A DNA stretch of 39,901 bases from a virus (IMGVR_UViG_3300040801_002123:1-39901), one strand, 5' to 3'; positions 1 to 39,901 are shown, counted from the first letter of the stretch. Notes: generated by a model from the letters alone, not told the origin. Program-made: numbers and translations.

Positions 1-117
1 TCGGCCAGCGTCATGCTGTTCTTGGCCATGAAGTCGGCCAGGCGCTTGAGCAGTGGGTGCTCGCTCAGTTCGTAGATCTGAGACCACTCACCATCAGGCA
101 CCGTGCCCTCGATCTCA
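1..117. repeat. Terminal direct repeat, copy 1. Identical to nt 39785-39901, consistent with an assembly overlap of a circular or terminally redundant molecule.
   Basis: Base-by-base reading: tcggccagcgtcatgctgttcttggcc...gtgccctcgatctca occurs at both ends. Confidence 0.9.
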
Positions 118-3193: not shown

Positions 3194-4198
3194 TCAGTCC
3201 TGGTCGAGTCTCCGCACCAGGTCGGAGACCGGGGAGCGGATCTTTCGCATGGGTGACGCCTGGTCGATGGCCTGTGTCTTCTTCCTGAGCGCGAGCTGGG
3301 TGTAGATCTGAGTGGAGCTCGGGTCCTCATGGCCCATGAGGTCCTGCTGCACCAGCAGGTGGACGTCCGATTCGGTGAGCTCAGTCCCGAACAGATGGCG
3401 GAGGGCATGCGGGTGGAGCTCGTCAGCGGGGATGCCGGCCTGCTCGCCATAGCGCTTGATCCGCCTGAGCACGTTCAGGGGGCGCACCCGCCGAGCCTCG
3501 CCGTGGTACTCATGCGGCGGCACCGTCCTGTTCTTGGTGCTGGCGAACAGCACGCGATCACCATTCGGGAGGGTGCGATCGATCCCCTCGAGCTCGGCGT
3601 GCCCGAGGTATGCGTGCAGCAGCATGGCCGTCTCGGCCGGCGCCGGCACCAGGCGCTCCTTGTTGGCCTTCTCGCTGAACCGAATGATCAGGCGCTCGCG
3701 CCGCTGATCGTCCAGGCGCCACAGGAGATCCCCCTCATTCAGCGCGCACAGCCCCGAGATCCTCGGTCCGCAGCCCAAGAGCACGGCGAGCATCGCGGCA
3801 TCGCGGACCCCGACGAACGTCTCCATATCGCAGCGCATCAGCAGCCTCTCCGCGTGCTGCAGGCTCATCGCCACGGGCAGCGGCTTGCCGGCGAGGGGCG
3901 TCTCGATGGCCTGGGCCTGGTTGTCCTTCGTGAGCCCGACCCTAAGTGCCCAGCCATAGAACCCTCGCACGGCCGAGACCAGCGGCCGCCGTGCACGAGG
4001 CGAGAGCTTGAGTTCCGAGTGCGCATGGATCCCGGTGAACGCGTCGAGCTGCTGCTGGGTGGCCTCCAGCAGACCCGTGGAGGCCTGCGCGAGAAAGGCC
4101 TGTAGGCGCTCCAGTGTCAGGCGGTACTTCGCCGCGGTGCGCTCCGAGCGCCCCTTGTTGTGCACCAGGTGCTCTAGGTATCGGTCGATAAGGTCCAT
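3194..4198 (-). CDS. Tyrosine recombinase, XerC/XerD-like integrase.
   Basis: 334 aa. N-terminal core-binding domain (RYLEHLVHNKGRSERTAAKYRLTLERLQAFL). Catalytic Arg (GCGPRISGL). HxxR (HPHALRH). His (LMGHEDPSST). Tyr nucleophile (TQIYTQL). Confidence 0.88.
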   Translation of the reverse strand: MDLIDRYLEHLVHNKGRSERTAAKYRLTLERLQAFLAQASTGLLEATQQQLDAFTGIHAHSELKLSPRARRPLVSAVRGFYGWALRVGLTKDNQAQAIETPLAGKPLPVAMSLQHAERLLMRCDMETFVGVRDAAMLAVLLGCGPRISGLCALNEGDLLWRLDDQRRERLIIRFSEKANKERLVPAPAETAMLLHAYLGHAELEGIDRTLPNGDRVLFASTKNRTVPPHEYHGEARRVRPLNVLRRIKRYGEQAGIPADELHPHALRHLFGTELTESDVHLLVQQDLMGHEDPSSTQIYTQLALRKKTQAIDQASPMRKIRSPVSDLVRRLDQD

Positions 4199-4733: not shown

Positions 4734-7541
4734 TCAGGGGGTCGGGGGGACCGCAGAAGGAGACGCGCCTGGGCCAGGGCCCAGCGCTGAGGAGGGGGGC
4801 GGCGCGAACTCCACCTCGAGCTGCTCGGGCAGGCTCGGGTGCAGCCCGTACTCCTCGAGCTTGTGCAGCGAGAGGGCCAACATGTGGCACTCCCGGCGAC
4901 TCTGGATCGTCGTATCCACCCGCTCACGCAGCACCACCCCAGCGCGCAGCAGCTGGCGCTTCAGCACCCGGTCGCTCTTAACTGGCAGTCCGTTCCACGT
5001 GTCGCGCAGGTGCACGCTGTGCCCCAGGTGGTGCATCACGTGCTGCGCGCGGATCAACAGCACCTCATGCGGCTCGCCCTCCGCATGCAGCTCGCGGAAG
5101 GCGTAGGGGTGGCGATAGTTCCCGCTCGAGATCTCCGCGAACAGCGTCTCCAGTATCCACACCCACGGCTCGCGATCGGCGCTGGTCTCGCTCACATGCC
5201 CGTTCGTCTCGGCCAGCAGGTCGTGCATGAAGTCCCCGTCCTTGGTGTCCATGCCGGCGAACTCCGTCAACAGCCGCCAGGCCGTCAGCACCGCCGCGTA
5301 GTTGTTCAGCATGCGCCTGGCGCCGTCGTCGACGCCCGAGGCCCGCGAGTTGCGCTCCAGATAGCTCAGTGCCCGCGCGTGCAGCTCCTGCACCTGGGCG
5401 CGCGAGTGCCGCGCCAGGAACTGCAGCCACTCCAGCACCGGGAACTTCGGCAGATCCTCCGGCAGCATGTCGCCCTTGCGCCCGGTCAGATCGCAGCGCA
5501 CCACCTTGCCGAGCAGTGAGCGCACGGGCACGTCCTCGCCGGCGAGCACCACCGGCGCGCAGGACAGATACTCCGTCAGGTCCGCGCCGCGGCGCGTGAT
5601 CGTGTACTGATAGGACTCCTGCAGCAGGCTCACTGCCTTATCGATCACCGTCTGCGCCCGAGCCGAGATCTCCTCCCAGCCCACCGGGTGGCTCGTGTGG
5701 GAGATCGACGTAAGCAGGCGGAACTCCGTCTGCAGGCTCTGTCCCGAGAACATGGTGAAATCCAGCGTGCGCTCCAGCTTCTTGATCAGGGTCGATTTCC
5801 CCGACCCTTTGTCCGCCTGCATCACCATGTGCGGCCAGAAGCCCAAAAACGCCTTCAGATGCCCGCCCAGGGCCCAGACCAGCAGCTGCGCCGCCGCGTT
5901 GCCCGAGAACGTACTCTGATAGGCCTGCAGCACCCGGCGCGCATCGCCCCGAGTGCCTGAGTGAAAGGTCAGATTGTGATACGGGCACTGGCGATCGGGC
6001 TCGGTGAAATAGCAGTCCGGCCCCTCGTTCACGATCGCCCGGCCCTGGCGCCACGCCAGGCCCACGAAGTTCACCGCCTCGCGCGCGCCGATGTCGGCGC
6101 CCCGCTCCAGGATGTTCACCAGGCGCAGGAACTGCGCCCGACTGAAGACCGGCCCTAGCTTCTGCCACTGATCCGCGTTATGCAGGCGCTCATCCTCGAA
6201 CACCCGCCGCACCAGGCGATTCCCGTGCCGCGGCGTCTGCACCGTCACCGCGAACATCGTGCGCGGTTGGTGGTCCTGCTCCCCGGTCATGGTGGCCACG
6301 GCACCGGCGATGGTCACCCGCGAGATCCCCGCGATCCGGAACCCACACAGATCCTGGAACTTCAGCTGCGTCTGCCCGTCCTCATCCTCCTCGCGTTTCG
6401 CGACGTAGGTCGTGAAATCCTCCTTGCAGCGGAACCGCCAGTACTGGGCATAGTCGTGCGCCGGCAGGAAGATGCGCCGCGGCCCCTGATAGTTGTCCCC
6501 ACCCGAGACCCCGGGTATGGCCCAGGGCTGCAGCTTTGCGAGCAGGATGCGCAGCTCCTCCTCACCCTCGGCCTGCAGCACGTCGTTGACATCGTTGTAG
6601 CCGCCCAGCTCATCCCACGCCTCCTGGTCGACCAGGTGCGCGGCGATGTTCATCGCCGTCAACTGCTCGTGCAGCTGCCACCCAGCCTCCTGCCCGGGGT
6701 AGCGGCCCGCCTGGGTGGCCTGATCATTGTCCATACAGATCAGCACGCGCTTCCCCTGCAGGAAGCGCCAGTCGCGTCCCTCCAGATTCCCGGCGCCCAA
6801 CACCGCCAGCGCCACCGAGCCGCGCAGCCCCGCCGTCTCGATCGACAGCGCATTGATCGAGCTCTCTACCAGGTAGACCGTGTGCGCCCCCTTGATGCGC
6901 GCATAATCCGGCGTCCACACCTGCCCCAGCTTCTCCCCCTGGATCTGCGTCTTCGTCCCGCCGTTCAGCGCCGGGTCCAGATAGCGGAGATCCACGGCGG
7001 CCACATGGCCCGGGTTCAGTGTGCGCACGATGAAGGCGGCGGCCGGCCCGCCGTGCCCGTGCTCACCCGCAGCCGCCTTGCTCGACGTCCACGCATTGAA
7101 GCCCAGGGTGCCTTTCTTGCGCGCGAGCTCGCAGGCCTCGCGCGATATCCCGCGCGCGGTCAGATACGCGATCGCCGGCTCCGGATCGGCCGCCAGGCAC
7201 TTGGCCGCGATGAACTCCGCCAGCGTCTTCTCGCGCGGCTCGTCGCTCGACTGCGGGCGATCGCGCGGGATCTGATACGCGTCGTGCAGCCAGCGCATCG
7301 CCTCGCCCGCCTCGAGGTCCTGCACGTACATGGCGAGGTCCACGCACGTGCCGCCCTCGCCCGTGCTGTGATCCTTCCAGCGCTGCTCACCGCCGCGGGT
7401 GTAGATCGAGAGGCTCGGACTCTTGTCCGCGTGCTTCGGGCTCTTGTAATTGCCCGCGTTCTTGCCGGGCCGCTCCAGTCCCAGCCGCGCGGCCAGGTCG
7501 TGCAGGTCAATGCGCTGCTTCAGCTCCTCGATCGAGGCCAT
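4734..7541 (-). CDS. Bifunctional DNA primase / helicase (Toprim plus P-loop NTPase, P4 alpha-like architecture).
   Basis: 935 aa. The N-terminal DnaG-type zinc-binding-like segment has its Cys ligands replaced (NYKSPKHADKSPSLSI). Toprim motifs (VYLVESSINALS and VLICMDNDQAT). Walker A (ADKGSGKSTLIKKLE). Confidence 0.8.
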   Translation of the reverse strand: MASIEELKQRIDLHDLAARLGLERPGKNAGNYKSPKHADKSPSLSIYTRGGEQRWKDHSTGEGGTCVDLAMYVQDLEAGEAMRWLHDAYQIPRDRPQSSDEPREKTLAEFIAAKCLAADPEPAIAYLTARGISREACELARKKGTLGFNAWTSSKAAAGEHGHGGPAAAFIVRTLNPGHVAAVDLRYLDPALNGGTKTQIQGEKLGQVWTPDYARIKGAHTVYLVESSINALSIETAGLRGSVALAVLGAGNLEGRDWRFLQGKRVLICMDNDQATQAGRYPGQEAGWQLHEQLTAMNIAAHLVDQEAWDELGGYNDVNDVLQAEGEEELRILLAKLQPWAIPGVSGGDNYQGPRRIFLPAHDYAQYWRFRCKEDFTTYVAKREEDEDGQTQLKFQDLCGFRIAGISRVTIAGAVATMTGEQDHQPRTMFAVTVQTPRHGNRLVRRVFEDERLHNADQWQKLGPVFSRAQFLRLVNILERGADIGAREAVNFVGLAWRQGRAIVNEGPDCYFTEPDRQCPYHNLTFHSGTRGDARRVLQAYQSTFSGNAAAQLLVWALGGHLKAFLGFWPHMVMQADKGSGKSTLIKKLERTLDFTMFSGQSLQTEFRLLTSISHTSHPVGWEEISARAQTVIDKAVSLLQESYQYTITRRGADLTEYLSCAPVVLAGEDVPVRSLLGKVVRCDLTGRKGDMLPEDLPKFPVLEWLQFLARHSRAQVQELHARALSYLERNSRASGVDDGARRMLNNYAAVLTAWRLLTEFAGMDTKDGDFMHDLLAETNGHVSETSADREPWVWILETLFAEISSGNYRHPYAFRELHAEGEPHEVLLIRAQHVMHHLGHSVHLRDTWNGLPVKSDRVLKRQLLRAGVVLRERVDTTIQSRRECHMLALSLHKLEEYGLHPSLPEQLEVEFAPPPSSALGPGPGASPSAVPPTP

Positions 7542-7796: not shown

Positions 7797-8071
7797 CCGC
7801 TGGGCACGTCGTCATCGCTGCCAAGGGACAGCGCCGGCGGTGGGGAGAAGAACCGAGAGCCCTTTCCCGAGCGCGGCGCATCGGCAGCCGCGCGCAGGTG
7901 CTCTACCTCCACCTTGGCGCTGTTGATGATCGTCTGCGCCACCTCGGAACCCGCCTTCGCGCGCCGCAGGCAGGCGTCCAGGCGCTCCTTGTCCTGCGCC
8001 GTATCGGGATCAGCCAGCTCCTCGAGCAGCGCGAACAGGTTATTGCGTAGATCCTCAACCCCGTTCTTCAT
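7793..8071 (-). CDS. Hypothetical early protein (92 aa, helical).
   Basis: Good SD (GGAGAAGGAGAGG) upstream of ATG 8071. Coding-like codon usage. Confidence 0.65.
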   Translation of the reverse strand: MKNGVEDLRNNLFALLEELADPDTAQDKERLDACLRRAKAGSEVAQTIINSAKVEVEHLRAAADAPRSGKGSRFFSPPPALSLGSDDDVPSG

Positions 8072-8786
8072 CCGTCCTCTCCTTCTCCACTCGGTTGATC
8101 TTCCGCACCAGCGTCCGCTTGACGATGATCGTCTGCTGCAGCTCCTCGGGCAGGCGGTGGATCGTGTTGCGCCCCATCAACTCGCGGCGGTGCAGCAGCT
8201 CCAGGTTCTCCAGGCGCACGTCCGTCTTGTCGCCATTGATGAACGCCACCACATGCCCCGCGGGGATCGGCCCATGTGTCGCCTCCCAGACCAAGTGGTG
8301 CACGTTCCTCCAGTCCTTCGGCGGGTAGCCCGTCGCCGTCATCTTTCGCTGCCGGTAACCCTCCTTGGATATGCGCTCGCTACCGATCGGCGCGAACTTC
8401 GACCCCCGCTGCCCCTTCTGAAAGCGCGTCGCATGCCCGCCGATGTCGAGCCCCTTCTTGCCCTTGTTCCACGGTACATGCCCGGGCGTGAACTCCGACG
8501 CCGGCGAGCGCCGCTCCCCCTTACGGACATTGCCCGAATTAGCATCCAGGAACGCCTGCGATCGCCGTAACCCGAGCCGATGAGCCTTGCTGTGGATCGA
8601 GTGCACCGGCACCCCGAAGCGCGCAGTGAGCTCAGGCATCGGCGTGTCCGGATACAGCGCTGCGAGCTCGCGCTCCTCGGCCGCCGTCCACACCTTGCGC
8701 CGACGTCGCGCACCTGCCCGTGGGTTACTCAACCTCAGCGCCCGCAGGTGGCGGCGGCAACATCCCGCGTGCCTGCACCTCATCAA
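8055..8786 (-). CDS. HNH endonuclease with an N-terminal Myb/SANT-like DNA-binding segment. Start uncertain (TTG 8732 or GTG 8693 are possible).
   Basis: The motif NVHHLVWEATHGPIPAGHVVAFINGDKTDVRLENLELL is a typical phage HNH signature. The N-terminus contains WTAAEERELAALYPDTPMPELTARFG. Confidence 0.75.
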   Translation of the reverse strand: MMRCRHAGCCRRHLRALRLSNPRAGARRRRKVWTAAEERELAALYPDTPMPELTARFGVPVHSIHSKAHRLGLRRSQAFLDANSGNVRKGERRSPASEFTPGHVPWNKGKKGLDIGGHATRFQKGQRGSKFAPIGSERISKEGYRQRKMTATGYPPKDWRNVHHLVWEATHGPIPAGHVVAFINGDKTDVRLENLELLHRRELMGRNTIHRLPEELQQTIIVKRTLVRKINRVEKERTDEERG

Positions 8787-9030
8787 TCACCCGCCGACCC
8801 GAGGGCAGGAGTATGTGCGGCAGAAACGCCGAATCGAACGACAGCACGCCGATCTCGATGGCGGTCACCTGGCCCTTCACCCAGTCCCTCAGGATCGAGT
8901 AGACGGCCACAGAGCCGATCTCGAAGGCCCGCTTCTCGTGCGCGACACGAGTGCTCTTCCGGCGATGGTTCCACGGGTTCTCGCGCAGCCACGCCTCGGC
9001 ATAGCCGCGGGCCGAGCCCCGCAGGTCGAC
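8725..9030 (-). CDS. Downstream half of a TAG-interrupted ORF. The 40 codons from 9030 to 8911 are coding-like but contain no ATG/GTG/TTG. The first canonical start is GTG 8910.
   Basis: This is the same frame as ORF 9031-9183 and begins immediately after its TAG. Third-position G+C is about 35 of 40 in the start-less stretch. The sequence reads VDLRGSARGYAEAWLRENPWNHRRKSTRVAHEKRAFEIGS-VAVYSILRDWVKGQ... Confidence 0.55.
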   Translation of the reverse strand, partial: VDLRGSARGYAEAWLRENPWNHRRKSTRVAHEKRAFEIGSVAVYSILRDWVKGQVTAIEIGVLSFDSAFLPHILLPSGRRVIDEVQARGMLPPPPAGAEVE

Positions 9031-9183
9031 CTAACGGCCGTGGTGCTCGAATTGGACGAACACATCGCCGGTCTCGAAGTCCTCGCCCGACGAGAACTTC
9101 GCGCAACCGAAGGCGCGCAGCGTGTTCTGTATCTCGACCAGGGCGCGCTGGCCCGTAGTCGCGTTGGCGTAGGGGAGCGCCAT
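9031..9183 (-). CDS. Upstream half (50 aa) of the TAG-interrupted ORF.
   Basis: ATG 9183 overlaps the stop of the preceding ORF (TGATG). The product is MALPYANATTGQRALVEIQNTLRAFGCAKFSSGEDFETGDVFVQFEHHGR, ending at TAG 9031-9033. Confidence 0.6.
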   Translation of the reverse strand: MALPYANATTGQRALVEIQNTLRAFGCAKFSSGEDFETGDVFVQFEHHGR

Positions 9184-9621: not shown

Positions 9622-9810
9622 TCAGCACGTCGACCGGGCCGCGGCGGCCTCGGCCTGGATGCGCTGGTACACCTCCTCGCGGTGCACCGGCACGTCAGCC
9701 GGGGCCTCGATGCCCAGGCGCACCTGGTTACCCCTCACCCCCAGCACGGTCACGGTGACCTCATCGCCCACCATCAGGCGCTCATTCGTCCTGCGCGTCA
9801 GTATCAGCAT
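9622..9810 (-). CDS. csrA: CsrA/RsmA-family post-transcriptional regulator (62 aa), translated from an internal start.
   Basis: [54 protein letters not shown] aligns by eye along its whole length with enterobacterial CsrA ([54 protein letters not shown]). AGGAGG lies 5 nt upstream of ATG 9810. Confidence 0.9.
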
Positions 9811-10299
9811 CGTTCCTCCTGGTTCATCGTCCGTCGTATCGGTCTCTCCCGCCTCCATCAGCCGGCGGTAGTGCGCGCGCTCCAGCGTCAGCGACACGCC
9901 CGCCCCGAACACCTGCCGCAGGCCGTCCTGCAGGACCGTACCCTCGGAGCTCGACAGCAGCGCTGCCAGGGCCGGGTCCGCCGCCTGCATGCCCGCCCAC
10001 AGCTGGCGGCGCTTGCCCGCAGCCAGATCGCGCACCACCACCTCCGGGCGCACGCCGGCGTAGCTCAGCACCGCCGGTGGCACCTGCGAGGCGTCGTAGT
10101 CAGGATGCCACCAGCACAGCCGGTCGCGATCGCGAATAGGTGCCGGGCCTGCGCACGCAGGCGGGAGTAGCGCCCCCCGTGCCGAGTCCGCCCGGCTGCT
10201 GGCCCTGTGGGGGTCACCAGCCTCGTGCCCCGGGTTCGGCGACACGCCCGCAGCGACGCCCACCCGGGGCATGGAGTCTTGCCGCTGCGGCTCGCTCAT
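9622..10299 (-). CDS. 225-aa ORF consisting of an unknown N-terminal domain (about 163 aa) fused in frame to the CsrA domain.
   Basis: ATG 10299 overlaps the stop of the upstream gene (ATGA). There is no stop codon between it and csrA. Third-position G+C is coding-like throughout ([53 protein letters not shown]...). Confidence 0.6.
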
Positions 10300-10562
10300 C
10301 CCTCTGCCGCCTCGCCCGGGAACAGCGGCGGCTGGTCCGCGTCGCGCGGCGGCGGCGTGCGCAGCTCGAGCTGCTCCAGCAGCTCGGCTGAGGCGGCCTC
10401 CAGGCGCAGGCGCACCTGCGCGCCGAGGGCATCGCGCAGCGTCAGCTCGCGCGAGTACAGCGCCTCGCCCACCTCGGGGTGCGGCGCCTTCAGTGCGCCC
10501 AGGCTCATCGCCTGCAGGCCCACCACGTGGACGTTCAGCCCGTTGCCGTGTGCCATGATCAT
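10296..10562 (-). CDS. Hypothetical early protein (88 aa).
   Basis: ATG 10562 overlaps the stop of the recombinase-like gene (ATGA). The N-terminal part of the listed 116-aa ORF was rejected. Confidence 0.6.
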
Positions 10563-11149
10563 GCCGAGCCCTCCTCCAGAGACAGCGCCACCTCCTCCTT
10601 CGTCGGCTGCGTGTAGATCGCCGTCGAGGAGCGGCTCGCATGACACAGCACCCGCTGCACCACCCGCAGCGGCTCACGGGCTGTCGAGTGCTCCAGCACC
10701 CGCTGCGCCAGCGTGTGCCGCCACCAGTGCGGCGAGCCCGCCGGCAGCCCCGCCTCATGCACCCAGTGCTGCATGCGCGCCTGCAGGCTGCGCACCGAGA
10801 GCCCGCGCCGGTGACGGCTCATGATCAGCGGCGCGTCCGGGTCCTGCGCATGGCCGAGCGCCCGGCGCACCCGGAGCAGATCCTGCAAGGCCACCCGGGC
10901 CCGGCGCGAGACCGGGACCTCATAGGCCCGAGCGCCCTTCGCGCGCGGCGGCCGCAGCACGCCCTCGCGGATCGCGTCCAGCGCGTCCTGCACCCGCAGC
11001 GAGGCCAGCGAGTCGACGCGGAGCCCGGTGTAGCGCAGCAGCCGCATCCAGGCGTGGTCGCGGGCGGCGATCGACCCCGTGCAGCGCGCCACCGTGCGCA
11101 GCAGCTGGCGCTCCTCGCCGGTGGTGAAGTAGCGGGCGAAGACGCTCAT
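10559..11149 (-). CDS. Catalytic-domain-only tyrosine recombinase (196 aa, no core-binding domain).
   Basis: All catalytic positions are recognisable: R ([10 protein letters not shown]), K ([14 protein letters not shown]), HxxR (SPHWWRHT), H ([10 protein letters not shown]) and Y (TAIYTQ). An in-frame stop upstream precludes a longer N-terminus. Confidence 0.75.
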
Positions 11150-39567: not shown

Positions 39568-39901
39568 CTAGCGCGCGTCGTCATCGTCGGCCTGCCGATG
39601 CTCGATCAATACCGGGTCGCGGGCGAGGTTATCTCGGCTGCGCCTGATCTGCTCCGAGAGCTGCTCGAGCAGCCCCGAGGTGCGCTCCTGGTACTCCAGC
39701 GCGGACTCGCGCTCATCGCGCTGCCCGTCGAGAAAACCCTGCACCATGTCGTCCTGGGTCTGCTGGCGCGGCGTCATGTCCAGATCGGCCAGCGTCATGC
39801 TGTTCTTGGCCATGAAGTCGGCCAGGCGCTTGAGCAGTGGGTGCTCGCTCAGTTCGTAGATCTGAGACCACTCACCATCAGGCACCGTGCCCTCGATCTC
39901 A
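39568..39901 (-). CDS. C-terminal part of the junction-spanning small terminase-like ORF. Nt 39785-39901 duplicate nt 1-117.
   Basis: Same frame as 1..779. The Met listed at 39885 is internal to the full ORF. Confidence 0.5.
   Translation of the reverse strand, partial: EIEGTVPDGEWSQIYELSEHPLLKRLADFMAKNSMTLADLDMTPRQQTQDDMVQGFLDGQRDERESALEYQERTSGLLEQLSEQIRRSRDNLARDPVLIEHRQADDDDAR
39785..39901. repeat. Terminal direct repeat, copy 2 (same as nt 1-117).
   Basis: Identical 117 nt at the window start. Confidence 0.9.

What the first reader, a model, noticed from the sequence alone, without database searches (positions are those of the whole stretch)
9622..10299. A phage-encoded CsrA is nested in frame at the C-terminus of a 225-aa ORF, so two isoforms are possible
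A near-canonical CsrA/RsmA sequence occupies 9810-9622. It has L2, L4, R6 and R7, the GxxG-free beta core and the VHREE motif, and a perfect AGGAGG lies 5 nt upstream. The 163 codons upstream are in the same frame with no stop. They show coding-like third-position bias and start at an ATG that is translationally coupled (ATGA) to the preceding gene. The locus therefore predicts a stand-alone 62-aa CsrA and also an N-terminally extended CsrA fusion. The N-terminal beta-strand of CsrA contributes to the dimer interface and the RNA-binding surface. An extension could therefore retarget, tether or poison host CsrA dimers. I am not aware of a described N-terminally fused CsrA or of a characterised phage CsrA in a lambda-like early operon. 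This is my best candidate for a new host-takeover module.
Basis: partly seen in the sequence, partly recalled or inferred. Interest (0 to 1): 0.78.

Follow-up and report, generated by a model that had tools for sequence, protein, structure and literature searches.

The report
Phage CsrA gene fused to neighbour
A complete temperate phage genome carries an ordinary copy of the bacterial RNA-binding regulator CsrA, and the small phage gene just upstream has no stop codon and runs into it in frame; this one-off fusion looks more like an accident of gene insertion or mutation than a new host-takeover device.

Summary
A canonical 62-aa CsrA (Pfam E=6.7e-26) lies at 9810-9622(-) behind AGGAGG plus a 4-nt spacer. 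It is in frame, with no stop, with 163 upstream codons that begin at an ATG overlapping the previous gene's TGA.

The upstream part is not a new CsrA module. Residues ~59-151 belong to a small orphan family I call "X". The other ten database members are stand-alone proteins of 76-176 aa, and all end where CsrA Met1 begins here. X sits in the early operon of related prophages, often abutting the primase gene.

Only this contig joins X to CsrA. None of about 145 other CsrA genes I inspected has a foreign N-terminal extension. GC content drops from about 0.76 to about 0.65 at the junction, so csrA is cargo in a variable slot.

The most economical reading is that X lost its stop codon at the cargo junction. 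Translation from the X start would then give an X-linker-CsrA fusion, and the native start would give free CsrA. A neighbouring gene carries a Gln-to-amber mutation, so point mutations are present in this genome.

Phage-encoded CsrA is already known (PHROG 9500; surveys in 2020; a knock-down phenotype in 2025). Whether the fusion has a function is untested. Interest is modest.

The parts
9622..10299 (-). 225-codon open reading frame: X domain, acidic linker and CsrA (the long isoform if translation starts at ATG 10299)
   Evidence: No in-frame stop. ATG 10299 overlaps the upstream TGA. JGI's own gene call for this contig is a shorter extended CsrA of 149 aa starting at GTG 10071 (P0001).
9622..9810 (-). 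Canonical csrA gene (62 aa plus TGA), the short isoform
   Evidence: Pfam PF02599 E=6.7e-26, model positions 1-52 of 53. PHROG 9500 E=2.4e-29. 70-80% identical to gammaproteobacterial CsrAs, all of which start at the same Met. Matches PDB CsrA/RsmA/RsmE chains at E down to 2e-24.
9815..9820 (-). Shine-Dalgarno AGGAGG, 4 nt (AACG) before ATG 9810
   Evidence: The identical leader AGGAGGAACG-ATG precedes an unrelated stand-alone csrA in L019 and L029. The region is unstructured.
9811..9846 (-). Junction/linker codons E152-T163 ([12 protein letters not shown]). GAA 9825-9823 is a candidate former stop codon (TAA to GAA).
   Evidence: Homology to X-family C-termini ends here. GC content shifts here. 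The former-stop idea is inference.
9847..10125 (-). Conserved core of orphan family X (aa 59-151): CWWHPDY motif followed by a helical domain
   Evidence: Homologues P0003, P0004 and P0006-P0013. Codon log-odds +0.45. AlphaFold model has four helices at 94-156 with pLDDT about 80.
10126..10299 (-). N-terminal 58 codons, Pro/Gly/Ala/Arg-rich. Predicted disordered, with no coding signature in any frame. Contains the only canonical in-frame start codons upstream of the CWWHPDY motif.
   Evidence: In-frame ATG/GTG codons read: 10299, 10272, 10263, 10245.
10296..10562 (-). Upstream 88-aa ORF, ATGA-coupled at both ends
   Evidence: log-odds +0.66. No Pfam match.
10559..11149 (-). 196-aa tyrosine-recombinase catalytic-domain protein, a conserved marker of this early operon
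   Evidence: PF00589 E=1.4e-24. Homologues in 26 related loci.
8725..9183 (-). Neighbouring gene split by an in-frame amber codon (TAG 9033-9031)
   Evidence: Both halves align without gaps (62% identity) to one intact ORF in L061. The TAG aligns with Gln.
8055..8786 (-). Free-standing HNH endonuclease in the variable slot between X and the primase
   Evidence: PF13392 E=5e-17 and PHROG 1891 E=2e-53. Also present between X and the primase in L108.
4734..7541 (-). 935-aa primase. It anchors synteny with relatives.
   Evidence: PHROG 5629, 1323 bits. About 59% identity to primases of Burkholderia phages KS5, KL3 and phiE202. 80 prophage loci carry relatives.

Best explanation
The window is a complete, circular, roughly 39.8-kb temperate phage genome. 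In its early replication operon, the slot between a small conserved gene (family X, function unknown) and the HNH/primase genes has taken up foreign, lower-GC cargo. This cargo includes a bacterial-type csrA with its own ribosome-binding site.

At the left edge of the cargo, X has no stop codon. The likely cause is either the insertion itself or a single base change such as TAA to GAA at 9825-9823. X happens to be in the csrA frame.

Two products follow. Ribosomes that start at the X start read straight through and make [13 protein letters not shown]-CsrA. The X start is most likely ATG 10299, which is coupled to the upstream gene. Ribosomes that load at AGGAGG-N4-ATG 9810 make normal 62-aa CsrA.

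The working product is the free CsrA dimer. It would bind GGA motifs in host (and possibly phage) mRNA leaders and in Csr/Rsm sponge RNAs, and so shift host post-transcriptional control early in infection or after induction. This is what has been proposed for other phage and plasmid CsrA homologues.

The fusion is a lineage-specific by-product. It may or may not retain activity.

Shown here: the sequence, the frame, the domain identities, that the fusion is found nowhere else, the compositional break, and the synteny.
Inferred: how the stop was lost, that both isoforms are made, and what either of them does.
For: - CsrA identity and intact RNA-binding residues.
- X is an independent family. 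Eleven proteins were found in the 5.8-billion-protein database, and only the window's protein carries PF02599. The other ten members are 76-176 aa and stop 0-8 residues after the AGR motif, which is exactly where CsrA Met1 lies here.
- In 13 of 80 related prophage loci, X is a separate gene, usually abutting the primase start. Four of the 80 loci carry CsrA-family genes, at other positions and never joined to X.
- None of 120 close CsrA homologues, 7 IMG/VR phage CsrAs, 14 metagenome/viral csrA loci or 4 prophage CsrAs has a foreign N-terminal extension. At most 30 open codons lie upstream. One exception is a tandem CsrA-like duplication.
- GC is 0.74-0.78 upstream of the junction and 0.57-0.72 from csrA down to about 8000.
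- The genes between X and the primase differ between relatives, so this is a variable slot.
- The leader AGGAGGAACG-ATG is identical to that of a stand-alone csrA elsewhere and is unstructured. There is no promoter upstream of csrA, so it is expressed from the operon.
- The same genome carries a CAG-to-TAG nonsense change in a nearby conserved gene, so point mutations affecting stop codons do occur here.
- Neighbouring genes that share a frame and are separated by a single stop are common in this contig.
- The 117-bp terminal overlap and the intact long genes argue for a clean k-mer assembly and against indel-ridden sequence.
- CsrA constructs with 10-18 extra N-terminal residues have been crystallised or solved by NMR (1vpz, 1t3o, 5z38). 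An N-terminal addition therefore need not stop folding or dimerisation.
Against: - There is only one sequence. I have no read depth, no second isolate, no expression data and no test of selection.
- The first 58 codons have no coding signature, so the true start of the long form is uncertain. Candidates are ATG 10299, ATG 10272, GTG 10263, GTG 10245, JGI's GTG 10071, or a non-canonical codon near 10137.
- The phage appears complete and circular, yet the fusion persists. That is also what one would expect if the fusion were tolerated or useful.
- The proposed ancestral stop codon is a guess.
- The function of X is unknown: no Pfam or PHROG match and no structural match.
Confidence: 0.6

Rival explanations
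1. Evolved two-isoform module. The X-CsrA fusion is selected for. The long form would tether CsrA's RNA binding to whatever X binds, for example the phage replication machinery. Alternatively it would form heterodimers that alter or poison host CsrA. The short form would act as ordinary CsrA.
For: - The frame is open, both starts look usable, and the linker is short, acidic and flexible.
- The genome is complete and circular, so it is not obviously decaying.
- CsrA-family genes recur in early operons that also carry X: L078, L082 and L085.
- CsrA tolerates N-terminal additions in solved constructs.
Against: - The fusion is a singleton in 5.8 billion proteins. Every other X is stand-alone, and every other CsrA inspected starts at Met1.
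- In the relatives that have both genes, they lie 1-3 kb apart and in the opposite order.
- The junction coincides with a compositional break.
- The full-length model gave no confident inter-domain contacts.
Confidence: 0.12
2. Sequencing, assembly or consensus artefact. The real phage has a stop codon or a frameshift at the end of X, and X and csrA are two ordinary adjacent genes.
For: - This is a single metagenomic contig with no coverage information.
- One base change (GAA from TAA) or a 1-nt indel would restore separation. Both other frames hit TGA within a few codons of the junction (read).
- Another stop-codon anomaly lies about 800 nt away.
Against: - The contig closes on itself with an exact 117-bp overlap, and its long genes are intact (935, 1556 and 853 aa). 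This is typical of an accurate short-read assembly.
- The amber codon is a substitution at a Gln codon, which looks like a real mutation.
- JGI's own gene caller also read through the junction.
Confidence: 0.13
3. Only a shorter long form exists, or none at all. Translation of X starts at GTG 10071 (JGI's 149-aa model) or not at all, and 10299-10126 is an untranslated spacer or regulatory region.
For: - No coding signal in 10299-10126 in any frame.
- The broader X family core begins near residue 80, so a 149-aa product would still contain it.
Against: - The CWWHPDY motif at residues 62-68 is shared with P0003, P0004 and P0007 and lies upstream of GTG 10071.
- The coding signal begins near 10120.
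- GTG 10071 has no good Shine-Dalgarno sequence, whereas ATG 10299 is ATGA-coupled in a chain of coupled genes.
- Three relatives (P0006, P0008, P0010) also have long N-terminal leaders rich in Pro, Gly and Ala.
Confidence: 0.1

Closest known systems
CsrA/RsmA homologues carried by phages and other mobile elements: PHROG 9500; the phage csrA alleles surveyed by Sobrero and Valverde 2020 (PMC7366521); phage gene PTXU04_00028 (PMC11879866); plasmid RsmQ of pQBR103 (PMC9928087)
   Same: A full-length, canonical CsrA domain with intact RNA-binding residues and its own ribosome-binding site, carried as accessory cargo by a mobile element. The expected action is on host GGA-containing RNAs.
   Different: Here the gene has no stop codon separating it from the preceding phage gene, so a 163-residue N-terminal extension is possible. 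Known size variation in the family is at the C-terminus (PMC7366521; PHROG profiles 5527 and 31572 place CsrA at positions 1-58).
Nested in-frame isoform genes of phages, for example lambda S107/S105 and T7 gene 4A/4B (from my own knowledge; not tested here)
   Same: An internal ribosome-binding site and ATG in the same frame as a longer ORF, so one gene yields a long and a short protein with the same C-terminus.
   Different: Those pairs are conserved across related phages and differ by a functional N-terminal segment. Here the two parts are two complete, unrelated genes that are separate everywhere else.
Orphan family X: small early-operon proteins next to KS5-type primase genes in proteobacterial prophages (P0003, P0004, P0006-P0013; ORFs in L031, L036, L052, L061, L078-L082, L085, L092, L108)
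   Same: The N-terminal part of the ORF shares the core motif L..L...R..W.G(I/M)(K/Q)..(E)PALA.LL...F.A and the same operon position (CII-like, then integrase-like, then X, then primase).
   Different: All other members terminate after the helical domain. This one continues into CsrA and is separated from the primase by 2.3 kb of cargo.
Rearranged or duplicated CsrA-family proteins: RsmN/RsmF type (from my own knowledge), and the two-stretch CsrA-like ORFs seen here in L012, L082 and L085
   Same: CsrA-family proteins on phages or prophages that are longer than the 60-aa norm.
   Different: Their extra sequence is itself CsrA-like (two PF02599 stretches). It is not an unrelated helical domain.

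Membership tests
CsrA/RsmA (Pfam PF02599) | Sequence matches the family model above the curated threshold, over its full length | tested here: met
   E=6.7e-26, 90.5 bits against a cut-off of 27, model positions 1-52 of 53. PDB CsrA chains match at E down to 2e-24.
CsrA/RsmA (Pfam PF02599) | Conserved RNA-binding residues in beta1 (L2, L4, R6, R7) and beta5 (V40, V42, R44). The residue list is from my own knowledge of the alanine-scanning and RsmE-RNA structure literature. | tested here: met
   All are present in the translation. Position 47 is Val instead of Ile.
CsrA/RsmA (Pfam PF02599) | Small single-domain protein (about 55-80 aa) whose N-terminus is the first beta strand | tested here: inconclusive
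   The 62-aa product from ATG 9810 meets this. The 225-codon ORF does not. Which product is made cannot be told from sequence.
CsrA/RsmA (Pfam PF02599) | Forms an interdigitated homodimer and binds GGA motifs in RNA | not testable with these tools
   Only monomer prediction was available, and the full-length model had mean pLDDT 49.9.
Phage-encoded CsrA-like regulators (PHROG 9500) | Matches the PHROG profile and lies in a phage genome | tested here: met
   E=2.4e-29. The contig is circular with tail, head, integrase, CII-like and primase genes.
Orphan family X (defined here) | Conserved core motif and helical domain | tested here: met
   The profile search retrieves the window's protein at E=3.9e-28 alongside ten other proteins. 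Alignments.
Orphan family X (defined here) | Stand-alone protein that terminates a few residues after the AGR motif | tested here: not met
   All ten other database members, and the ORFs in genome loci, terminate there. The window's ORF continues into CsrA.
Nested in-frame dual-start genes | Internal ribosome-binding site plus start codon in frame within a longer translated ORF | tested here: met
   AGGAGG, 4 nt, then ATG 9810, in frame with coding sequence upstream.
Nested in-frame dual-start genes | Both products are made, and the arrangement is conserved in relatives | tested here: not met
   Conservation was tested and is absent. Expression cannot be tested here.

The most novel reading that the evidence does not exclude
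The X-CsrA read-through is a working, selected design. The phage would make both a normal CsrA and a version carrying a 160-residue N-terminal domain. The long form would recruit GGA-containing RNAs to a phage early or replication complex. Alternatively it would form mixed dimers with host CsrA and change their activity. This would be the first natural N-terminally fused CsrA.
Probability: 0.12. Interest if true: 0.65.

Novelty: new variant of a known kind. Interest (0 to 1): 0.3.

Why it matters
If the fusion is real and active, it would be a natural experiment on whether CsrA tolerates, or can exploit, a large N-terminal domain sitting next to its RNA-binding surface. It would also give a handle on the unknown family X that accompanies KS5-type primases.

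More soberly, the locus adds one more case of csrA carried as cargo in a temperate phage's early operon. Five of the 81 related elements examined here carry a CsrA-family gene. It also shows how inserting cargo, or a single base change, can weld two phage genes together. It does not open a new class of host-takeover system.

Tried and rejected
- Word-indexed search of 5.8 billion proteins with the 163-aa N-terminal part found only the window's own protein. The exhaustive HMMER search was needed to find the first weak homologues.
- The search for related loci with the N-terminal part found nothing in metagenome or genome contigs. Low-complexity patterns probably filled the candidate cap. The X-family alignment was too variable to make DNA patterns from.
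- The window contig itself is not in the metagenome or IMG/VR copies searched. P0001 is not in the gene-position index. No sample or coverage information could therefore be recovered.
- A tblastx synteny comparison was swamped by GC-rich noise. I replaced it with tblastn and phmmer on defined ORFs.
- Combined alignments of X, CsrA and the full-length protein were mis-aligned by MAFFT (A4 and A6), so they were not used for structure prediction.
- The full-length AlphaFold model (alignment A5) had mean pLDDT 49.9 and says nothing about contacts between the domains.
- The model of the X domain gave no significant fold match in the PDB or BFVD (best E-values 5.7 and 0.7).
- X has no Pfam or PHROG match, no tblastn match in 50,697 phage records, and no similarity to KS5 gp3 or gp4.
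- Stop-codon reassignment (TAG read as Gln) was considered because of the amber codon. I rejected it: TAG ends 13 of 35 confident ORFs, no tRNA gene is present, and the amber is a single event.
- A co-encoded Csr/Rsm sponge RNA was considered. There are no Rfam hits anywhere in the window.
- An own promoter for csrA: none predicted. There is only one weak terminator-like hairpin downstream, at 9572-9557.
- A literature search for N-terminally extended or fused CsrA found nothing relevant.

Full report
**1. The observation**

On the minus strand, 9810-9622 encodes a 62-residue protein. It matches Pfam CsrA (PF02599) at E=6.7e-26 over model positions 1-52 of 53. It matches PHROG 9500, 'CsrA-like regulator', at E=2.4e-29, and solved CsrA/RsmA/RsmE chains at E down to 2e-24. 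L2, L4, R6, R7, V40, V42 and R44 are all present; the importance of these residues is from my own knowledge of the family.

AGGAGG lies at 9820-9815, followed by AACG and then the ATG. The spacer is therefore 4 nt, not 5. The frame stays open upstream. ATG 10299 overlaps the TGA of an 88-codon ORF (10562-10296). That ORF has a strong coding signal and is itself ATGA-coupled to a 196-aa integrase-like gene.

A codon log-odds test trained on the contig's long genes gives these scores:
- CsrA: +0.62
- Codons 59-163 of the extension: +0.45, against -0.70 and -0.84 in the other two frames
- Codons 1-58: no positive score in any of the six frames

The spacer is 4 nt, and the first 58 codons show no coding bias.

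**2. What the contig is**

The window is the whole contig. Its two ends share an exact 117-bp overlap, so it is a complete circular assembly of about 39.8 kb at 69.9% GC.

It carries serine and tyrosine integrases, a CII-like activator, a J-type tail protein and head-morphogenesis genes. Its 935-aa primase is about 59% identical to those of Burkholderia phages KS5, KL3 and phiE202 and of Ralstonia phages. It is a mosaic temperate phage. The early operon is 'lambda-like' only in having a CII-like gene.

The closest primases in genomes (63-67% identity) are in Chromatiales, Thiogranum and other gammaproteobacterial MAGs. A CsrA-bearing gammaproteobacterial host is therefore likely; this is inference.

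**3. What the N-terminal part is**

A word-indexed search of 5.8 billion proteins found only the contig's own gene call, a 149-aa 'carbon storage regulator' starting at GTG 10071. The exhaustive HMMER search found weak hits to small proteins. A profile built from those hits retrieved 11 proteins, of which only the window's carries PF02599; the other ten are 76-176 aa.

The alignment shows a conserved core: L..L...R..W.G(I/M)(K/Q)..PALA.LL...F.A....RR...AG(R). Every other member ends 0-8 residues after that core. This is exactly where CsrA Met1 lies in the window. I call this family X.

X has no Pfam or PHROG match and no match in 50,697 phage records. An AlphaFold model shows residues 1-85 disordered and a four-helix domain at 94-156 with pLDDT about 80. 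The model has no structural neighbour in the PDB or BFVD. The function of X is unknown.

**4. Genomic context of X and of CsrA in relatives**

Contigs encoding X members share the window's gene order: CII-like, a 200-aa integrase-like gene, small ORFs, X, small ORFs, then the primase. None has csrA next to X.

I scanned 80 prophage loci recovered with the primase:
- X is present in 13 loci. In seven of them it directly abuts the primase start.
- CsrA-family genes are present in four loci: L078, L036, L082 and L085. They lie 1-3 kb upstream of X or downstream of the primase, and are never joined to X.

In the closest relative, L108, the order is X, a different 136-aa ORF, HNH endonuclease, a 92-aa-like gene, then the primase. 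The slot after X is therefore variable cargo space.

In the window, GC falls from 0.74-0.78 (X and upstream) to 0.57-0.72 from csrA down to about 8000. The break lies at the X/csrA junction.

**5. Is an N-terminally extended CsrA seen anywhere else?**

- The 120 best CsrA homologues are 58-109 aa. The eight I read in full, including all those of 78 aa or more, start at MLIL and vary only at the C-terminus.
- Seven IMG/VR phage CsrAs and 14 csrA loci sharing the [10 protein letters not shown] start have at most 30 open codons upstream. The exception is one ORF whose extra part is itself CsrA-like.
- All three PHROG CsrA families place the domain at profile positions 1-58.
- The literature describes size variation at the C-terminus only (PMC7366521), and a search for N-terminal fusions found nothing.

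Within the limits of what I could list, the fusion is a singleton.

**6. How the fusion probably arose and what is made**

The leader AGGAGGAACG-ATG is identical to that of a stand-alone csrA in an unrelated 36%-GC contig (L019 and L029). The last four 'linker' codons (PGGT) are therefore simply csrA's own 5' leader.

Homology to X ends at about ...EAGETDTT. Between the two lie DDE. GAA (9825-9823) is one base away from TAA, and a TAA there would leave a textbook TAA-cc-AGGAGG-aacg-ATG junction. This is inference.

Adjacent genes that share a frame and are separated by one stop are common in this contig. Some 800 nt downstream, a conserved gene carries a TAG that aligns with Gln in an intact homologue at 62% identity without gaps. 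Point mutations that create stop codons are thus demonstrably present in this genome.

TAG is otherwise a normal stop here, ending 13 of 35 confident ORFs. There is no tRNA gene and no Rfam hit. Recoding of the stop codon is therefore not the explanation.

No promoter is predicted in front of csrA, and the leader is unstructured. The operon transcript should therefore yield two products:
- a read-through X-linker-CsrA from the X start;
- free CsrA from the internal start.

The start of the long form is uncertain. The CWWHPDY motif shared with P0003, P0004 and P0007 lies upstream of JGI's GTG 10071. The only canonical in-frame starts upstream of the motif are 10299, 10272, 10263 and 10245. ATG 10299 is the one coupled to the preceding gene.

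**7. Likely function**

Free CsrA is the conservative candidate for the active product. It would add to, or compete within, the host Csr/Rsm network, as proposed for other mobile-element CsrAs. A plasmid homologue, RsmQ, has been shown to take over regulation (PMC9928087). Knock-down of a phage csrA homologue reduced plaque size (PMC11879866).

Whether the long form folds, dimerises or binds RNA is unknown. CsrA constructs with 10-18 extra N-terminal residues have been solved (1vpz, 1t3o, 5z38), so an N-terminal addition is not necessarily disruptive. The full-length model was too poor to say more.

**8. Comparison with what is known, and novelty**

Phage-borne CsrA is established (PHROG 9500; 88 phage records; 30 of 2517 phages in PMC7366521). 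The CsrA part passes every sequence-level membership test. The architecture (a foreign N-terminal domain) is a variant I could not find elsewhere, but it occurs only once and has the marks of an accident.

I rate it a new variant of a known kind, with interest 0.3. The most novel reading not excluded is a selected two-isoform module that tethers or poisons CsrA. I give that about 12% probability.

**9. Rival explanations**

- Assembly or consensus artefact, about 13%. The clean circular assembly and the intact long genes argue against it.
- Selected module, about 12%.
- A shorter long form, or none, about 10%.

Read mapping across 9811-9846 and detection of the protein isoforms would decide between them.

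Noticed in passing
window 9183-8725 (-), TAG at 9033-9031: A conserved 151-codon gene is interrupted by an in-frame amber codon. Both halves align without gaps (62% identity) to one intact ORF in L061 (7029-7484), where the TAG position is Gln. This is probably a CAG-to-TAG nonsense mutation. No suppressor tRNA is present in the contig.
   Followed up: yes
window 1-117 and 39785-39901: An exact 117-bp terminal direct overlap. The contig is a circularly closed, complete phage genome of about 39.8 kb.
   Followed up: yes
window 9499-9449 (-): A 16-codon mini-ORF (MRSHNLTMDHRSEGGL) behind a perfect AGGAGG plus 4 nt. Its TGA overlaps ATG 9452 of the next 89-aa ORF (ATGA). The 170 nt between csrA and this point have low GC (0.57-0.61) and no coding signal. 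It could be a leader peptide or a remnant.
   Followed up: partly
L012 5467-6186 (IMGVR_UViG_3300037311_000517); L082 6476-6811; L085 6573-6947: Phage and prophage ORFs of 104-133 aa with two PF02599-matching stretches each. These are tandem or partly duplicated CsrA-like proteins, possibly single-chain or RsmN-like variants. In L082 and L085 they sit in the same early operon as an X homologue.
   Followed up: partly
L008 and L009 (IMG/VR), about 6022-6399: Phage CsrAs with a conserved C-terminal extension of about 60 residues (..IDERIKRVAAEVDPRSLFVKENPAGFAPEDLEREGSGF..). Its function is unknown.
   Followed up: no
window 11149-10559 (-); also L005, L013, L014, L035, L108 and others: A roughly 200-aa protein consisting only of a tyrosine-recombinase catalytic domain is conserved inside the early operon of 26 related elements, separate from the phage's full-length integrases (843-2465 and 3194-4198).
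   Followed up: partly
window 8055-8786 (-), and L108 6655-7338: A free-standing HNH_3 endonuclease sits in the variable slot between X and the primase, both in the window and in its closest relative. It may be the agent that mobilises cargo into this slot.
   Followed up: partly
P0006, P0008, P0010 (X family) and window 10245-10140: Three X homologues share a conserved Pro/Gly/Ala-rich N-terminal leader (SPHPAGRA...PADPQA..ST.CTGRA) that weakly resembles window residues 19-52. In the window this stretch has no codon bias. It could be a disordered leader or a conserved DNA or RNA element.
   Followed up: no
L019 12223-12277 and L029 2156-2210: A stand-alone csrA in a 36%-GC, 42-kb contig has exactly the same 10-nt leader (AGGAGGAACG) before its ATG as the window's csrA, despite the very different base composition.
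   Followed up: no
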